Shown: positions 23,112 through 36,751 of the stretch, one piece after another
Numbering within the stretch: position 1 is the stretch's first letter
How the letters are laid out: every line of letters begins with the position of its first letter
Origin: Escherichia phage EP335
Sequence record: MG748548
Reading direction: 5' to 3' (one strand)
DNA length: 64,000 nt
The notes under the pieces: model-generated
Told to the model about the DNA's origin: nothing
Databases searched by the model: none
Seen by the model: the letters and a program-made list of their open reading frames with translations, nothing else
Made by a program: the position numbers and the translations under genes

Positions 23112-23590
23112 CACCTATACCGATAAGGGTGCTATATAGTATAAGCAGTAGTGGTAGTAGATATTGACTACTAGTAATGTATATATTGTATAGATGATAA
23201 TTCTATTGCAGGCTTGTATATTGGGCAATTCTCAGAATCCCTTGCAAGTACCGAAGGGCAGGAGACACCTGCGAGATAAAAATAGAGAATTAAGGAATCC
23301 TTGATTTAGGTTGTAGGGACTCCTAGGGACTTTGATTCTCTATTTAAAAGAAATATTAATTACTTACTACCTAAATAGTTAACTAACTTACTTAAAACCT
23401 TTTCAATAAGAATTGCTAAAAGGATAATTCCTAAGAAAGCTAATAAGAGAAAGGCATAAGTTACCATTCCATCATTCCTTTTAATCTAGATTCTTCTACT
23501 ATTCGCTGATAGAGTAAGTTAGACTCAGCTTGATCTTTTAACATTTTACTGTATTGATCTCTGAGACTATCTTTATAAACAACAGGTGGT

Positions 23591-30978: not shown

Positions 30979-31635
30979 TTAACTCTCCAGAGTTTTCCTT
31001 AGAGCTGACCAAGAAATTGGGTAGAGTTTAGCCATCTCTTCATCTAATGACTGAGCAAACAGTCGAACTTCATACTGAGCATGGGATGATAGTCGTTGAC
31101 GACACAATTCAAACCAGCCATACAAACTACCAGTCCATACCCACTCAGTAATCATCCCCTGAGGAAGAACAAAGCGAGCTTGCTCTGGTGCAACAAATTC
31201 AATTAATTTGTCATAGGCTGCCAGTGAAGCCTCATACGCATTATTGATTAGCATTAATGCTTCGGCTCGTTCTCCGTTGACAAGCTGTGTCCCTGAACCT
31301 GCATGGAGGTCCGAAGGTCTCGCAAAAATCTCTTTAGGGATGAAGACTTCAACTGCTCCATCTTTATACCGCCGGGACATTTCGTTCCACGAGAATCCAA
31401 CCTGATGTTTTTGTAGTTGACGAGCTATTGCAATTGGAGCTTTACATCGAAAAGATACTTGAGGGTGTCTGAACGGAGTACAGTGTTTCTCTCTGGCAAG
31501 AAAGTTGATTAATCGAGTATCACGATCATTCAAATCACCCTCTCGCACAACACCGAAAGAAACTCTTGCAGCATTAACAACTGTTTTATCACTACCCATA
31601 GCTTCAATCAATGTTGCCTTCAATTGTTCATTCAT
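30979..31635 (-). CDS. thyX: ThyX-like protein (flavin-dependent thymidylate synthase family; RHR motif replaced by KHQ)
   Basis: FRHPQVSFRC and QLQKHQVGFSWNEMSRRY align with ThyX FEHVSF and QLVRHRxxSxxxxSxRY blocks. Confidence 0.65.
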   Translation of the reverse strand: MNEQLKATLIEAMGSDKTVVNAARVSFGVVREGDLNDRDTRLINFLAREKHCTPFRHPQVSFRCKAPIAIARQLQKHQVGFSWNEMSRRYKDGAVEVFIPKEIFARPSDLHAGSGTQLVNGERAEALMLINNAYEASLAAYDKLIEFVAPEQARFVLPQGMITEWVWTGSLYGWFELCRQRLSSHAQYEVRLFAQSLDEEMAKLYPISWSALRKTLES

Positions 31636-32110
31636 ACTTCAACTTCTCCTTGTTATAAGCAATCTCTGCTTCCTCTGGAGTGTGGAAAGTTCCCAAATGT
31701 TTAGTCTTTCCGCCAACTCCGATGATAGCTCTGAATTTTGTACCACTCGCCGTCTCTCTGATATAGACACCCATTGGGAGCTTTCCAGCTTTTCCGGCTC
31801 TGTTATATTGTTTCCTGTTATGACAGTTTGTAGATGGGTCAACATCTCTTAGGTTTTTAAGAGAGTCATCCAGTTTAATCTGGTTGATATGATCAATCTC
31901 AAACTCAGGCATCTTTCCATAAGAGAAAAACCAAGCTAAACGACAAGCTCTGTAAGATTTTCCTTCGTAATAAATATACCTGTAACCTAGTGTAGAGATA
32001 CACCCAGCAATATTCCCAGCCACCCGTCTACCTTTGGTATTCTTCCACCGAAAGATTCCAGTTTCAGGGTCATAAGACAGGTCTTCTTTTATCTTGTCAG
32101 TTAATATCAA
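31628..32110 (-). CDS. HNH homing endonuclease with AP2-type DNA-binding domain
   Basis: HNH core EIDHINQIKLDDSLKNLR plus AP2-like GVYIRETASGTKFRAIIGVGGKTKHLGTFHTPEEAEIAYN. Confidence 0.75.
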   Translation of the reverse strand: MILTDKIKEDLSYDPETGIFRWKNTKGRRVAGNIAGCISTLGYRYIYYEGKSYRACRLAWFFSYGKMPEFEIDHINQIKLDDSLKNLRDVDPSTNCHNRKQYNRAGKAGKLPMGVYIRETASGTKFRAIIGVGGKTKHLGTFHTPEEAEIAYNKEKLKYE

Positions 32111-32790: not shown

Positions 32791-33378
32791 TTAGTATGAG
32801 ACGTCACTAGAGTGTGACATGTTACTTTTAACGAAGTAGCAATACTTGCCTAACCCTTCGTTGATTTCTTGGAGCATGCTCTGGTCAACTGGATACTCGC
32901 TCAAACATCCATCGAACTCATCCATTTTGTCAATCATGCACATTAAAGACATGCACATATCAGAGAGCATACCATCCATATCTAGGTCTGCATTTCCTTC
33001 AGAGAACCAAGAGTGTGATAGGTAGTTAGAAGCAGTTGCATCCACCTTAATACAGTGGAAACGCATACGTTCAGCTATCCGATCACCTGTCTCACGAGCA
33101 TAATCTTCAAGCTCATCAAACATTCCATGAACACCCTGAAATCCTGCACCAGATACGTTCCAGTGATAATTCTTAGCTTTGATATGCAAGAGTTCTAAAT
33201 TAGCTTGAATACCGCATAGAATGTGTTCTAGGCTGTTTCCACTAATCATCCCTTGCATACGCTCTAAACGGGAGATAGAAGAGTCTGTTTCACGTAATAC
33301 ATCACGGAAAGAAGTCTCTTTTGTTAGAGTTGGTAGGTCGAAAACATTGTGATTAGGCATTAGGATTCTCTCCATCAA
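32791..33378 (-). CDS. Dps/ferritin-like protein
   Basis: NYHWNVSGAGFQGVHGMFDELEDYARETGDRIAERM matches the Dps ferroxidase-centre region (HWN..G..F...H..F.E...........AER). Confidence 0.6.
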   Translation of the reverse strand: MMERILMPNHNVFDLPTLTKETSFRDVLRETDSSISRLERMQGMISGNSLEHILCGIQANLELLHIKAKNYHWNVSGAGFQGVHGMFDELEDYARETGDRIAERMRFHCIKVDATASNYLSHSWFSEGNADLDMDGMLSDMCMSLMCMIDKMDEFDGCLSEYPVDQSMLQEINEGLGKYCYFVKSNMSHSSDVSY

Positions 33379-33682
33379 GTTCTACTGAGTTCGCAACATT
33401 GCGTGTAATGTTATCCATTACCTGTTGGGTGATAACGATGCAGTTCTGTGGGTCAACCGACTTAGAACGTCCCATCTCAGGGTCATACACTTTAACGCGC
33501 TTTGCTGTAGAACCAGTTACCTGTAACACCTTGAGAAGATAACCCTGATTCCCGATAGACCATGCAACAACATCACGATTCTTGATGAATCGACCAAGCA
33601 TATCACGATGATAGAACTGCTGCATAACCTTTGATTTATTAATCTCTTCGGCTGGCGGAGCCACTTTACTCAAATCTAACAT
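33353..33682 (-). CDS. Hypothetical protein
   Basis: 109-aa ORF; AAATGTATATA motif 40 nt upstream. Confidence 0.45.
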   Translation of the reverse strand: MLDLSKVAPPAEEINKSKVMQQFYHRDMLGRFIKNRDVVAWSIGNQGYLLKVLQVTGSTAKRVKVYDPEMGRSKSVDPQNCIVITQQVMDNITRNVANSVELDGENPNA

Positions 33683-33754
33683 TTCACTCTCTCCTGTTCA
33701 ATACAATATTCTTATACTGTATATACATTTGAGAGTGATCATATCTACTACCAA

Positions 33755-33961
33755 CTAGTAGAAAACTGCTTTGGATATAAAAGAGCCAGTATTAGGGTCC
33801 TCATGCCATCGATGCATAGTGACTTTTGAGATAACCTTGCAAGCTTTCAAGTTTTTCTTGGTGAGACGAGCTTCTTCTCTGGTGTTGAATAACTTGATGG
33901 TATCTTTACCCACACGCTCTTCTACTCTCCACACTATTCGTATAGCCCACATCTTTTTCAT
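33755..33961 (-). CDS. Small protein, member 1 of a tandem paralog triplet
   Basis: MKKMWAIRIVWRVEE..., similar in length and pattern to the next two genes. Confidence 0.45.
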   Translation of the reverse strand: MKKMWAIRIVWRVEERVGKDTIKLFNTREEARLTKKNLKACKVISKVTMHRWHEDPNTGSFISKAVFY

Positions 33962-34176
33962 TAGTAATGTACCTTTCCGCTGATATAAATACGGCCTGAG
34001 GTATACTCATAGCCCTTGAGGATTTTGACAGAGGAAACACTATTCATCCCACTGAGAGATTTCTTAAGATTACGTGAACCCTCTCGTGTTTTCTGATAGG
34101 TCATGGTTGTATTACCATTATCCCACTCTATCTTAACTATCCAAATTCTTTTCATAAGACCTGCTCTCTTTACCAT
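33961..34176 (-). CDS. Small protein, member 2 of the tandem paralog triplet
   Basis: MVKRAGLMKRIWIVKIEWDNG...; stop/start coupled to neighbours. Confidence 0.45.
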   Translation of the reverse strand: MVKRAGLMKRIWIVKIEWDNGNTTMTYQKTREGSRNLKKSLSGMNSVSSVKILKGYEYTSGRIYISGKVHY

Positions 34177-34373
34177 TAGTAGTACACCTTGCTATTGGCG
34201 AAAAAAGCACCTTCGCTATTCACAATAGCTTTTCCTAATGTAACCTTGTTAAGTCTAAAAGTAGACTTGTATTGATTTTTGACCCTACGTGCGTGATCTC
34301 GAGTCTTAACAAAATCTACAGCTACCAAGTCTCCAGTCATGTTATCATGTACACGAACAATCCACTTTTTCAT
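34176..34373 (-). CDS. Small protein, member 3 of the tandem paralog triplet
   Basis: MKKWIVRVHDNMTGDLVAVDF...; ends in YY like member 1. Confidence 0.45.
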   Translation of the reverse strand: MKKWIVRVHDNMTGDLVAVDFVKTRDHARRVKNQYKSTFRLNKVTLGKAIVNSEGAFFANSKVYY

Positions 34374-34907
34374 TTACACACCCTTAGAAGCAACAACACC
34401 TTCGCTACCATTGTAGCGACCTTTAACTGCATAGGAATGCTCACCAGCATGTGAATGCTCAAACATCACCATCTGACCGACACGCATACCAGCACGAACC
34501 CGTAAGCTGTGGTGCTTGGTTACGTTATGGAACTCAAATGTCAGCTTGCTATTGTTAAACCCAGCGTCTGCCCAACCAGCGTGCAAGTGGTTCAAGCCAC
34601 AACGAGCCATTGAAGATCGTAGAACAAACAAGCTGGAGATGTTATCTGGGAGGTTGAACTCTTCCATTGAGTGAGCCAAGAAGAATTGTCCCGGAGTGAT
34701 GATAATGCCATCTTCAGGGATTTTTACTTCTTTCCACTTGAGGTTTTCTTTCGCATCAATGTCAACAATCCCATCAGCCTGTTCTTCAATAAGGATAGTA
34801 TCACCAACACGGATATCCACACTAGCAGCGTTAACATACTTATGCTCCGCATCCAGAAAACCGTTGTCGATAACGTCGTGTAATTCCATGCTTCCTAATA
34901 AACTCAT
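34374..34907 (-). CDS. dcd: dCTP deaminase (dUTPase-fold)
   Basis: SVDIRVGD, PGQFFLAHSMEEFNLPDN, RSSMARCGL and AGWADAGF align with E. coli Dcd TVDVRLG, PGELALAVTLESVTLPAD, RSSLARLGL, PGWSG. Confidence 0.8.
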   Translation of the reverse strand: MSLLGSMELHDVIDNGFLDAEHKYVNAASVDIRVGDTILIEEQADGIVDIDAKENLKWKEVKIPEDGIIITPGQFFLAHSMEEFNLPDNISSLFVLRSSMARCGLNHLHAGWADAGFNNSKLTFEFHNVTKHHSLRVRAGMRVGQMVMFEHSHAGEHSYAVKGRYNGSEGVVASKGV

Positions 34908-34921
34908 TCTTATTCCTTATG

Positions 34922-36202
34922 TTAATCTGCGATACTGTCGCTTTCGTCCATCCAGACTGGACTGTTAACCTGTCCTAGACGACGAGCTGATGTTTCGTTA
35001 ATAGAGTTAACCCCTGCTGTGCGAGGGTTTGTGTACCACGGTCGAGCTATGGTGCCCTCTCGAATCACTTGGTTCGTTTCGACATGCCATCTGTTTGATA
35101 CCGTGTTGGCTCCGAAGTTACCACCCGCCCCACCACTAACAGGTACAGCTTGAGCTGGTTGGTTTACTCGGTTAGTTCCTGCCCCAAAGGCTGCTGCAAA
35201 TTCAGACACACGTGCATCAAATGAAGAACGAACACGCTGAGTAGGTGATATATCATTTCGTGTATCTACTGCACGAGGCATAGCCCAAGTATCATCTGTT
35301 GAGATATCAGGGGTAGGCTCTTGCTCTAGAGGTTGAAGATTAGCTGTCCATTGACTATTCAGTATACGATAGAAATCTGCACCATAACCACTTCGGATAA
35401 CATCCTCTCTGACACCAAAGAAGCGACTGATATCCCCACCGATTCGGGCTAGTTTGTCATTGTATGCAGGTATGATTATTCCACCCTCTGTCACTAAATC
35501 AGAGACACGACTTGTTGTAAGTGGTGAAGTGATCCAACAATAATAATCAGTAATGTGACCATCGTATCCGAAGAATGCAATCTCTGCATCAGGCCATTTC
35601 TTGTGGACATATGCCACTTCACGGTTAGAACAAACAGGGATTGCACCTGTTTCAGTCATTGCATAGAAGCCGTCAGAAGAGAACCAAAGTGAATCTAGTG
35701 CTAAGAATCCACGACACACGCTCGGGAAAGTAGCAGCCAGCGCCCCAAGTGAGGTAGGTTCATTGAACATTAACTGAATCTTTGCACCCTGATAATTAAT
35801 CTCTAGGATATCTACAAAATTCAAAGAAGACCCAGGGGCATATTGATTATTACTTCGTCCAATATCCTGCTCAATGAGAAGAGATCTTGTTTCAACACCA
35901 TGAGCCTCTGCCCACTCTTTGAAATCTTCAAGGAACAAGCGAGCCTTAGCTCGCCACATCGACCGATCAATTACAGACTGTCTCGGCAATCCACCCTCTG
36001 TAGTGATGAGAAAGATATCAATGTCGTGAGGTTCACGCGTCTGAAAGATTGCATCCCTAACAGCACCACCTGCAATGATAGGGTACACACCATCAGGGAT
36101 TAAACGGTTTGCAATCAACTCGTTAATTAACGTAAGACCAGACACAAGCTGCGGACTATCATCAATCCGTCGACGAATTAGTGCATTAGGGATATTATAC
36201 AT
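34922..36202 (-). CDS. Pol-beta superfamily nucleotidyltransferase (CCA-adding-enzyme-like head domain) with long Gly/Asn-rich C-terminal region
   Basis: IIAGGAVRDAIFQTREPHDIDIFLI matches the GG-x-R-D ... D-x-D nucleotidyltransferase motif of class II CCA-adding / poly(A) polymerase enzymes. Confidence 0.55.
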   Translation of the reverse strand: MYNIPNALIRRRIDDSPQLVSGLTLINELIANRLIPDGVYPIIAGGAVRDAIFQTREPHDIDIFLITTEGGLPRQSVIDRSMWRAKARLFLEDFKEWAEAHGVETRSLLIEQDIGRSNNQYAPGSSLNFVDILEINYQGAKIQLMFNEPTSLGALAATFPSVCRGFLALDSLWFSSDGFYAMTETGAIPVCSNREVAYVHKKWPDAEIAFFGYDGHITDYYCWITSPLTTSRVSDLVTEGGIIIPAYNDKLARIGGDISRFFGVREDVIRSGYGADFYRILNSQWTANLQPLEQEPTPDISTDDTWAMPRAVDTRNDISPTQRVRSSFDARVSEFAAAFGAGTNRVNQPAQAVPVSGGAGGNFGANTVSNRWHVETNQVIREGTIARPWYTNPRTAGVNSINETSARRLGQVNSPVWMDESDSIAD

Positions 36203-36751
36203 TTACATTTTCCAATATAAAGATGGGGGGTCATTTGGGTCAAAGTTTGCAATATGACAAAGATATTTATAAACCTTAACCGTTAAGTTTACGTCCTGTT
36301 CACAATAAGTAAACATGTCCTCTGTAAAGGCATCCCATGCTTCTTCCTGTTCACCGTAATCGCCCTTAAGCTCTTCTAAGAACTCACCCCATTGCTTTAA
36401 GCCATGACCTCTTGGGCCATGTCTAGGGTCGCCTTTCGGATACTCAGGACTGTCACCAATACGGTCAGGTTTAAGATACCGACTCAGACATAAAGTGTCT
36501 AGGACGTTGAATTTGTATTTGATTAATTTCGGATATACTTTCTTCAGAGCTGGAAGGTCGAAGTCAATAATATTATGACCTACAACAATATCAGCCTCTG
36601 TAAGTTTCTTGATACCCTCTTCAATCTGGTGAGGACGAAATCCCCACCGTTCACCAGTTGCTATATCGAAGATAAAGATACACCATACGTTTGTGATATT
36701 GTCGTACAGTGCATCACTCTCAATATCAAATGCGTAGACTTTCTTTACCAC
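36203..36751 (-). CDS. DNA polymerase family A, 3'-5' exonuclease domain (T7 gp5 N-terminal-like), separate gene
   Basis: Exo I AFDIESD, Exo [13 protein letters not shown], Exo [12 protein letters not shown]; [11 protein letters not shown] and [19 protein letters not shown] resemble T7 gp5 N-terminal blocks; stop after ~182 aa. Confidence 0.85.

What the first reader, a model, noticed from the sequence alone, without database searches (positions are those of the whole stretch)
33755..34373. Tandem triplet of small paralogous genes upstream of dCTP deaminase
Three consecutive, translationally coupled ORFs of 65-71 aa share an MKK-x-W-[IV]-[VI]-[RK]-[IV] N-terminus, a basic central segment and a terminal Tyr. 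This is a second, independent small-gene family formed by local tandem duplication.
Basis: seen in the sequence. Interest (0 to 1): 0.4.

Follow-up and report, generated by a model that had tools for sequence, protein, structure and literature searches.

The report
Fast-evolving small basic phage gene triplet
Three adjacent small genes in a phiEco32-like E. coli phage are real, anciently duplicated copies of one phage-only family of tiny, strongly basic proteins that changes far faster than its neighbours; its function is still unknown, so it is a modest lead, not a discovery.

Summary
Three co-oriented ORFs on the minus strand (A 34176-34373, B 33961-34176, C 33755-33961) are significantly similar: BLASTP E 2e-5 to 1e-8, shuffle z 7-13. 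Each matches PHROG 4939 (unknown function) end to end. They are the counterparts of phiEco32 gp71/gp70/gp69. In the direction of transcription they lie downstream of dcd, not upstream.

The window is a Kuravirus/Nieuwekanaalvirus-type phage. The family is small: 26 hits among 1.8 billion representative proteins, three of them spurious. It was found only in such phages and two related Salmonella phages. It occupies two slots, dcd|..|gp68 and thioredoxin|..|thyX, with 2-4 and 0-2 copies and at least five paralogue clades.

All 60 distinct members are basic (pI 9.7-10.9). AlphaFold gives the same beta-beta-alpha-beta-beta-beta fold for A and B (pLDDT 84 and 81), with no convincing solved analogue. 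Thr-Arg, Arg and Lys on the single helix are invariant or nearly so.

The genes are under purifying selection but evolve quickly (dN/dS 0.25-0.41 against 0.05-0.09 for neighbours), and their alleles assort independently. My best reading, which is inferred, is accessory proteins that bind a polyanion (probably nucleic acid) and are shaped by host-phage conflict. This is a new allele set of a known uncharacterised family.

The parts
34176..34373 (-). Gene A, 65 aa, pI 10.2. Counterpart of phiEco32 gp71; A-type paralogue.
   Evidence: ORF list. PHROG 4939, E 2e-26. 88% identical to phiEco32 gp71 and 52% to KBNP1711 gp073. AlphaFold2 pLDDT 84, topology beta-beta-alpha-beta-beta-beta.
33961..34176 (-). 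Gene B, 71 aa from the ATG that overlaps the stop of A (TAATG). An alternative internal ATG at 34155 gives 64 aa. Counterpart of phiEco32 gp70; B-type paralogue.
   Evidence: PHROG 4939, E 2.7e-20. Best deposited-phage match is only 73%. AlphaFold2 pLDDT 81 with the same topology as A; residues 1-8 are unstructured. The TAATG start is kept in frame with the inner ATG in all relatives.
33755..33961 (-). Gene C, 68 aa, pI 10.2. Counterpart of phiEco32 gp69; C-type paralogue and last gene of the array.
   Evidence: PHROG 4939, E 1.6e-22. Best deposited-phage match is 61%; 94% identical to the metagenomic protein P0001.
34174..34190 (-). A/B junction AAGGTGTACTACTAATG. The codons for the conserved C-terminal K-V-Y-Y supply a Shine-Dalgarno-like AGGTG 8 nt before the ATG, and the stop and start overlap (TAATG).
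   Evidence: Read directly from the sequence. The same AAGGTnnAnTAYTAATG pattern is found at nearly every internal junction of the 12 related loci aligned (exceptions: IMEP8 has TGATG; phiEco32 and two metagenomic loci have AAGAT or GAGGT). It forms a 24-nt direct repeat with the B/C junction.
33959..33975 (-). B/C junction AAGGTACATTACTAATG, built the same way as the A/B junction.
34371..34385 (-). dcd/A junction: AAGGG (Shine-Dalgarno-like), then the dcd stop TAA followed directly by the ATG of A.
   Evidence: In relatives this junction is a site of insertion: a 68-aa unrelated gene, an HNH endonuclease, or a membrane protein.
34374..34907 (-). dCTP deaminase gene, immediately 5' of the array on the same strand (context).
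   Evidence: Pfam DCD, E 6e-35. 93-98% identical across most relatives.
33722..33730 (-). AAATGTATA, a match to the phiEco32 gp36-sigma promoter element tAATGTAtA, in the 72-nt gap after gene C. It marks the 3' boundary of the transcription unit that holds the array.
   Evidence: AATGTATATA is invariant in 8 aligned loci, including distant metagenomic ones. A gp36-dependent promoter upstream of phiEco32 gene 68 was mapped experimentally, as reported in PMC8948821.

Best explanation
The region holds three real protein-coding genes on the minus strand, transcribed together with dcd. They are probably translated in a chain: the dcd stop TAA is followed directly by the ATG of A, and A/B and B/C overlap as TAATG. 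In the two overlapping junctions, the Shine-Dalgarno sequence for the next gene lies inside the conserved C-terminal Lys-Val codons.

The genes are anciently diverged paralogues of one phage-specific family (PHROG 4939; phiEco32 gp71, gp70, gp69). Each product is a single small alpha/beta domain of about 65 residues: a beta-hairpin, one helix, then a three-strand meander. Each is strongly basic (pI about 10). A stripe on one face of the helix is invariant or nearly so: Thr-Arg at the N-cap, Arg four residues later and Lys seven residues later.

My inference is that this stripe grips a phosphate-rich ligand, most likely nucleic acid. The fast-changing parts (the C-terminal half of the helix, the following loop, and the beta3-beta4 edge) would set the specific target. 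The phages keep several diverged versions, vary their number, and reshuffle alleles by recombination at the repeated gene junctions. This fits accessory factors engaged in host-phage conflict (counter-defence or host take-over) better than core enzymes.

Shown here: gene reality, family membership, predicted fold, charge, evolutionary rates, allele mosaicism, copy-number variation and promoter context. Inferred: the ligand and the biological role.
For: - Homology.
- Coding under selection: dN/dS (sum ratio) is A 0.25, B 0.27, C 0.41, all below 1. This is 3-8 times the values for dcd (0.09), gp68 (0.05) and the Dps-like gene (0.07) in the same loci.
- Divergence: against related phages the three genes are 47-95% identical in amino acids, while flanking dcd and gp68 are 92-98% identical in most relatives. 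The best matches to B and C in 50,697 phage records are 73% and 61%.
- Mosaicism: the window's A is phiEco32-type (dS 0.13-0.38, against about 1.0 for dcd versus the same phages), while its B is KBNP1711-type.
- Copy number: 2-4 copies in the first slot and 0-2 in the second.
- Charge: all 60 distinct members have pI 9.66-10.91 and net charge +5 to +12.
- Conserved residues: W4, R25 and R29 are invariant and T24, K32 and Y65 nearly so across 29 diverse members.
- Fold: A and B give the same predicted topology.
- Junctions: the same junction architecture recurs at nearly all internal junctions in the relatives.
- Variable positions within the A type cluster at residues 34-41 and 49-60 (my reading of the sequences).
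Against: - No homologue has a known function, and no experiment bears on these proteins.
- The basic stripe could equally bind an acidic protein surface or a nucleotide.
- Every related genome examined keeps at least one copy, and most keep two or more. The family sits in the replication and nucleotide-metabolism module rather than the early 'host take-over' block. Both points would suit a housekeeping role.
- dN/dS stays below 1, so diversifying selection is not demonstrated; the data show only relaxed or fast evolution.
Confidence: 0.45

Rival explanations
1. The proteins are housekeeping nucleic-acid-binding accessory factors of phage replication or transcription. Examples would be small DNA-coating or architectural proteins, RNA chaperones, or regulators acting at the adjacent gp36-type promoter. 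Several diverged copies would exist for dosage or sub-functionalisation, not because of conflict with the host.
For: - The family is uniformly basic.
- It lies inside the DNA replication and nucleotide-metabolism cluster, directly before the conserved P68-type promoter.
- At least one copy is present in every related genome examined, and most have two or more.
- The C-terminal half of the B type is well conserved.
Against: - Amino-acid divergence is 5-10 times that of neighbouring core genes.
- Alleles assort independently, and individual paralogue types (A, C, D, E) are gained and lost. This is unusual for a core architectural factor.
- No match was found to any known nucleoid or chromatin protein family.
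Confidence: 0.2
2. The proteins are accessory subunits or regulators of the phage dTTP-synthesis enzymes. They would bind Dcd and/or ThyX, for example as scaffolds or allosteric modulators, and would be made in fixed ratio with Dcd by translational coupling.
For: - Both genomic slots abut enzymes of the same pathway. The first slot starts at the dcd stop codon. The second slot ends about 14 nt before thyX in the loci where it is occupied.
- This includes a Salmonella phage classified in another family, which has only the copy next to thyX (HMM E 1.7e-14).
Against: - Dcd and ThyX are 91-98% conserved in most relatives while the small proteins diverge to 47-60%. A tight partner would be expected to evolve along with its enzyme.
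- The window keeps ThyX but has no copy in the second slot, where an HNH endonuclease gene sits instead.
- Unrelated genes are inserted between dcd and A in many relatives, which breaks the coupling.
- Copy number varies while the enzymes remain single-copy.
Confidence: 0.12
3. The ORFs are non-functional filler, or chance ORFs whose resemblance comes from composition or from a DNA-level signal at the junctions.
For: They are short, have no annotated function, and share DNA similarity only at the junctions.
Against: - Similarity is significant beyond composition.
- Profile matches run the full length of each protein.
- dN/dS is below 1 in this reading frame across 11-13 genomes.
- Fold predictions are confident and concordant.
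- The genes are conserved in about 90-100 phage genomes and in metagenomes.
Confidence: 0.03

Closest known systems
phiEco32 gp71, gp70, gp69 and their counterparts in Kuravirus/Nieuwekanaalvirus phages (PHROG 4939, 'unknown function')
   Same: Same family, with full-length profile matches. Same order and position between dcd and the gp68 homologue. Same stop/start overlaps.
   Different: The window carries a new combination of alleles: A is 88-95% identical to the phiEco32 type, B only 73% to the nearest deposited phage, and C only 61%. It lacks the fourth, thyX-adjacent paralogue that KBNP1711, NJ01, Paul, MN05 and 4E8 have.
Arrays of small, fast-evolving phage accessory genes, such as anti-CRISPR or anti-defence gene clusters and the T-even hyperplastic regions. 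This comparison is from general knowledge and was not tested as membership.
   Same: Small ORFs, tandem arrangement, variable copy number, mosaic alleles, high amino-acid divergence next to conserved core genes, and confinement to one phage lineage.
   Different: No demonstrated target or phenotype. The array is embedded in the replication and nucleotide-metabolism operon rather than an early accessory island. All members are homologous to each other and strongly basic, whereas many known inhibitors are acidic nucleic-acid mimics. No match in PADLOC, though that library holds defence proteins, not anti-defence proteins.
Two-layer alpha/beta (ferredoxin-like) small domains: cyclase homology domain core, RRM/UHM, PII, BMC and ClpS
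   Different: The model has a single helix and strand order beta-beta-alpha-beta-beta-beta, not beta-alpha-beta-beta-alpha-beta. Sequence identity is 0-18%. Foldseek finds nothing better than E 0.13 and TM 0.54 normalised to the query. There is no sequence-profile match to any solved structure.
DNA-mimic anti-restriction proteins (Ocr or ArdA type)
   Same: Small phage proteins. Gordonclarkvirinae are reported to be strikingly restriction-resistant with no known mechanism (PMC11990801).
   Different: DNA mimics are strongly acidic, whereas this family has pI 9.7-10.9. If these proteins protect DNA at all, it would be by binding it, not by mimicking it.

Membership tests
PHROG 4939 (phiEco32 gp69/gp70/gp71 family) | Significant, full-length match to the family profile | tested here: met
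   A E 2e-26 (residues 1-65 on profile 2-67 of 67); B E 2.7e-20; C E 1.6e-22.
PHROG 4939 (phiEco32 gp69/gp70/gp71 family) | Conserved position between dcd and the 109-aa gp68 homologue in phiEco32-like genomes | tested here: met
   Same order in KBNP1711, ShigP1, phiEco32, SU10, Bas89, 4E8, Paul, IMEP8, MN05 and metagenomic contigs.
Tandem paralogue array produced by local duplication | Adjacent, co-oriented genes with significant pairwise protein similarity | tested here: met
Tandem paralogue array produced by local duplication | Residual DNA-level similarity, or lineage-specific clustering of copies, indicating recent duplication | tested here: not met
   Only a 24-nt junction repeat at 79% identity. 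Copies cluster by position (types A, B, C, D, E) across phages, not by genome (NJ tree without bootstrap support). The duplications therefore predate the divergence of these phages.
Translationally coupled operon | Stop and start codons overlap or abut, with a Shine-Dalgarno sequence inside the upstream gene | tested here: met
   TAA followed directly by ATG at dcd/A, and TAATG at A/B and B/C, with AAGGT(G) 8-9 nt upstream. The pattern recurs at nearly all internal junctions in the relatives.
Translationally coupled operon | Translation of the downstream gene depends on translation of the upstream gene | not testable with these tools
   Needs reporter fusions or ribosome profiling.
DNA-mimic anti-restriction proteins (Ocr/ArdA-like) | Strongly acidic surface that mimics DNA | tested here: not met
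   pI 9.66-10.91 and net charge +5 to +12 in all 60 distinct members.
Ferredoxin-like beta-alpha-beta-beta-alpha-beta domains (RRM, ACT, PII, cyclase core) | beta-alpha-beta-beta-alpha-beta topology with two helices on a four-stranded sheet | tested here: not met
AbrB/MazE swapped-hairpin (beta-beta-alpha-beta-beta) DNA binders | Structural match to the swapped-hairpin barrel | tested here: not met
Any Pfam, NCBIfam or PADLOC family, or any solved structure by sequence | Profile match | tested here: not met
   No hits at E up to 10 in Pfam, NCBIfam or PADLOC. The best PDB profile hit has E 0.33.

The most novel reading that the evidence does not exclude
The array could be the missing factor behind the unexplained, near-complete resistance of Gordonclarkvirinae to restriction-modification systems. 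On this reading, a set of interchangeable small basic proteins binds phage DNA (or a host nuclease-DNA complex) through the invariant Thr-Arg/Arg/Lys helix and shields it. The paralogue repertoire would then be tuned to the defence repertoire of the host. Nothing found here excludes this, and nothing specifically supports it beyond charge, fast evolution, copy-number variation, and the published observation that these phages lack a known anti-restriction mechanism (PMC11990801).
Probability: 0.07. Interest if true: 0.75.

Novelty: new member of a known kind. Interest (0 to 1): 0.3.

Why it matters
phiEco32-like phages are common coliphages, are used in therapy-oriented work, and are now part of the BASEL reference collection. 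Most of their small genes have no assigned function.

This work shows that gp69-71 belong to one multi-copy family of basic proteins with several notable properties:
- It evolves quickly and exchanges alleles by recombination.
- It occupies two defined slots next to the dTTP-synthesis genes.
- It has a conserved basic helix.
- It has a gene junction that encodes both the protein's C-terminus and the next gene's ribosome-binding site.

That gives experimenters a concrete, small set of candidates for host-interaction or counter-defence functions, together with clear mutants to make. As it stands, it is an annotation-level advance on an uncharacterised family, not a new kind of system.

Tried and rejected
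- **Long proteins in the representative search.** Three long proteins (P0060, P0066, P0073) looked like possible remote relatives. They give many unrelated Pfam matches with no significant stretch, so I treat them as repetitive or low-complexity artefacts.
- **Related loci in viral contigs.** The scan with the diverse alignment failed for lack of a conserved peptide stretch. With the closer alignment it returned only the three known isolates.
- **Further paralogues in the window.** None was found with either HMM.
- **Extra gene in relatives.** I tested whether the extra 68-aa gene between dcd and A in SU10, Paul, IMEP8, MN05 and 4E8, or KBNP1711 gp074, is a fourth paralogue. It is not: there is no HMM hit, and gp074 looks like a membrane protein.
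- **Literature.** No paper found discusses gp69-71 as paralogues or assigns them a function. Savalia 2008 and Pavlova 2012 are not held, so the expression class of genes 69-71 could not be read directly.
- **Terminator-like hairpin inside dcd (34402-34419).** It has no T-run, and the sequence differs in the relatives shown. I rejected it as a terminator.

Full report
**What is there.** The interval holds three ORFs on the minus strand: A 34176..34373 (65 aa), B 33961..34176 (71 aa; an internal ATG at 34155 gives 64 aa) and C 33755..33961 (68 aa). They follow the dCTP deaminase gene (34374..34907, minus; Pfam DCD E 6e-35). The dcd stop TAA is followed directly by the ATG of A. The A/B and B/C boundaries are TAATG overlaps.

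**Is the similarity real?** Yes.
- BLASTP gives A-B 27% identity (E 2e-5), A-C 25% (E 6e-5) and B-C 31% (E 1e-8).
- Local alignment scores lie 7-13 standard deviations above 3000 shuffles; at most 1 shuffle reached the observed score.
- Each protein matches PHROG 4939, a family of unknown function, over its whole length with E 2e-26 to 3e-20.
- An HMM of the family finds no other member among all ORFs of the window.

**Where the window comes from.** The region is 81-87% identical in DNA to phiEco32-like podophages of Escherichia and Shigella (Gordonclarkvirinae: Kuravirus and Nieuwekanaalvirus). The best match is phage KBNP1711. The triplet corresponds to phiEco32 gp71, gp70 and gp69, and to KBNP1711 gp073-gp071. 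All are annotated as hypothetical proteins.

**Extent of the family.**
- A profile search of 1.84 billion representative proteins found 26 hits at E up to 0.001. Three are long proteins that look like repetitive or low-complexity artefacts; the rest are proteins of 65-79 residues.
- Every contig I could inspect is a phage of this type.
- tblastn finds the family in about 60-100 deposited phage genomes. Nearly all are from Escherichia or Shigella.
- Two related Salmonella phages labelled Grimontviridae also carry it, with a single copy directly upstream of thyX (HMM E 1.7e-14).

**Two slots and variable copy number.** Members occupy two places in the genome. The first is between dcd and the gp68 homologue. 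The second is between thioredoxin and thyX.
- The first slot holds 2 copies in L004, L021, L022, L023 and L025, 3 copies in the window, the Kuravirus isolates and L006, and 4 copies in L020.
- The second slot holds 0, 1 or 2 copies.
- A neighbour-joining tree groups the copies by type rather than by genome. It gives at least five clades, here called A, B, C, D and E, in the order A-B-E-C in L020. The sequences are short and the tree has no bootstrap support, so this is only a rough guide.
- In the window the second slot holds an HNH endonuclease gene instead of a family member.

**Gene junctions.** Nearly every internal junction in the 12 related loci aligned reads AAGGTnnAnTAYTAATG. The conserved C-terminal Lys-Val-x-Tyr codons thus provide the Shine-Dalgarno sequence for the next gene, and the stop overlaps the next start. 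The two junctions in the window form a 24-nt direct repeat. Such repeated junctions offer in-frame sites where whole gene units could be gained, lost or exchanged; that step is my inference. The terminal Tyr is also kept in genes with no coupled downstream gene (types C and D), so there is a protein-level constraint as well.

**The proteins.**
- All 60 distinct members have pI 9.66-10.91 and net charge +5 to +12.
- Across 29 diverse members W4, R25 and R29 are invariant, and T24, K32 and the C-terminal Tyr nearly so.
- AlphaFold2 gives A a mean pLDDT of 84, with strands at 2-10 and 16-22, a helix at 25-38, and strands at 42-51, 57-59 and 62-64.
- B (71 aa) gives the same topology at pLDDT 81, with the first eight residues unstructured.
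- T24-R25 sit at the N-cap of the helix. R29 and K32 follow at +4 and +7, which puts them on one helical face.
- Sequence searches found nothing in Pfam, NCBIfam, PADLOC or PDB sequences.

**Evolution.**
- Codon alignments of 11-13 loci give dN/dS (sum ratio) of A 0.25, B 0.27 and C 0.41. The same loci give dcd 0.09, gp68 0.05, the Dps-like gene 0.07 and thyX 0.08. The ORFs are therefore coding and under constraint, but they change several times faster than their neighbours.
- Against related phages A, B and C are 47-95% identical in amino acids, while dcd and gp68 are 92-98% identical in most relatives.
- Alleles assort independently. The window's A is phiEco32-type (88-95% identity; dS 0.13-0.38, while dcd versus the same phages has dS about 1.0). 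Its B is KBNP1711-type (73%). Its C is at most 61% identical to any deposited phage, but 94% identical to a metagenomic protein.
- Within the A type, variable positions cluster at residues 34-41 and 49-60, while residues 1-11, 24-33 and 61-65 are nearly fixed (my reading of the sequences).

**Transcription context.** The 72-nt gap after gene C contains AAATGTATA (33722-33730, minus strand), and AATGTATATA is invariant in eight aligned loci. This matches the tAATGTAtA element of promoters read by the phiEco32 sigma factor gp36. One of those promoters was mapped experimentally upstream of phiEco32 gene 68 (PMC8948821). The array is therefore the last part of a transcription unit that starts upstream, with dcd, the nucleotidyltransferase, the exonuclease subunit and the primase/helicase, and it cannot be served by that promoter. 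No terminator-like site separates dcd from the array. The papers that would give the measured expression class are not held.

**Interpretation.** The descriptive conclusions are firm: these are real genes, one family, ancient paralogues, a basic alpha/beta fold, fast and mosaic evolution, and variable copy number in two slots. The function is inferred. The uniformly basic charge and the conserved Thr-Arg/Arg/Lys stripe point to a phosphate-rich ligand, most likely nucleic acid. The evolutionary pattern resembles accessory host-interaction genes more than core factors. I put about 0.45 on that combined reading, 0.2 on a housekeeping nucleic-acid-binding role, 0.12 on an accessory role for Dcd or ThyX, and 0.03 on non-function. 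The enzyme-accessory idea gains some weight from the conserved adjacency to thyX, even in a different phage family. It is weakened by three things: the rate mismatch with those enzymes, the absence of a second-slot copy in this window, and the frequent insertions between dcd and A in relatives.

**Novelty.** The family already exists in databases as PHROG 4939 and as 'hypothetical protein' in about 100 genomes. I found no paper that discusses it. The window adds a new allele combination. The more general points made here are the family's extent, its two slots, the dual-use junction, and its rates relative to neighbours. These are useful annotation-level findings, not a new kind of system.

**A speculative link.** Gordonclarkvirinae are reported to be remarkably resistant to restriction-modification systems with no known mechanism (PMC11990801). 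A DNA-shielding role for these basic proteins is not excluded, but nothing here supports it specifically.

Noticed in passing
window 33741-33753 (minus) and 23152-23164 (plus): A box TGGTAGTAGATAT lies exactly 24 nt upstream of the gp36-type promoter element at two sites: before AAATGTATA at 33722-33730 (minus) and before TAATGTATA at 23175-23183 (plus). TGGTAGTA is invariant in 8 aligned loci; the ninth base differs in one. The other three exact promoter matches in the window (13694 plus, 23103 minus, 29441 minus) lack it. It may be an upstream element or regulator site for a subset of these promoters, which are described as single-element.
   Followed up: partly
window 31628-32110 (minus): A 160-aa HNH endonuclease ORF (Pfam HNH_3, E 7e-7) sits between thioredoxin and thyX. 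That is exactly where relatives carry the fourth (D-type) paralogue of this family. It overlaps the thyX start by 8 nt. ShigP1 has an ORF of similar size at the same place. The endonuclease has apparently displaced, or substitutes for, the paralogue.
   Followed up: partly
window 34922-36202 (minus); loci L001-L019: The 426-aa 'nucleotidyltransferase' next to dcd exists as two very different alleles. The window's copy is 93-96% identical to KBNP1711 and Bas89 but only 31-42% identical to phiEco32, SU10, Paul and others, while the flanking genes stay about 90% identical or more. It has no Pfam hit here; a relative (L021) has a faint Gad2 hit.
   Followed up: no
dcd/A junction: window 34371-34376; L001 4057-4248, L014-L019 2298-2504, L015 1991-2500: The dcd/A junction is an insertion hot spot in relatives. 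SU10, 4E8, Paul, IMEP8 and MN05 have an unrelated 68-aa gene there, Bas89 and the metagenomic contig L021 have an HNH endonuclease, and KBNP1711 has a small membrane protein. The window and phiEco32 have no insert.
   Followed up: partly
window 36196-36204 (minus): A second AAATGTATA sits at the exonuclease/nucleotidyltransferase gene boundary and overlaps sigma-70-like hexamers (36194-36243). A transcript started 6-8 nt downstream would begin inside the annotated nucleotidyltransferase ORF. This is either a chance match or an internal promoter feeding dcd and the array.
   Followed up: no
L021 5514-5711: A weak, divergent family member (66 aa, HMM E 5e-4, with the T-R-x-x-x-R-x-x-K-K motif and a YY terminus) lies in a third position, just before thioredoxin, in a metagenomic relative. 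The family may be larger than the profile currently detects.
   Followed up: no
window 33353-33682 (minus): The 109-aa gene just after the promoter (the gp68 homologue) is extremely conserved: 92-97% identical even in distant metagenomic relatives, with dN/dS 0.05. It has no Pfam match. It overlaps the start of the Dps/ferritin-like gene that follows.
   Followed up: no
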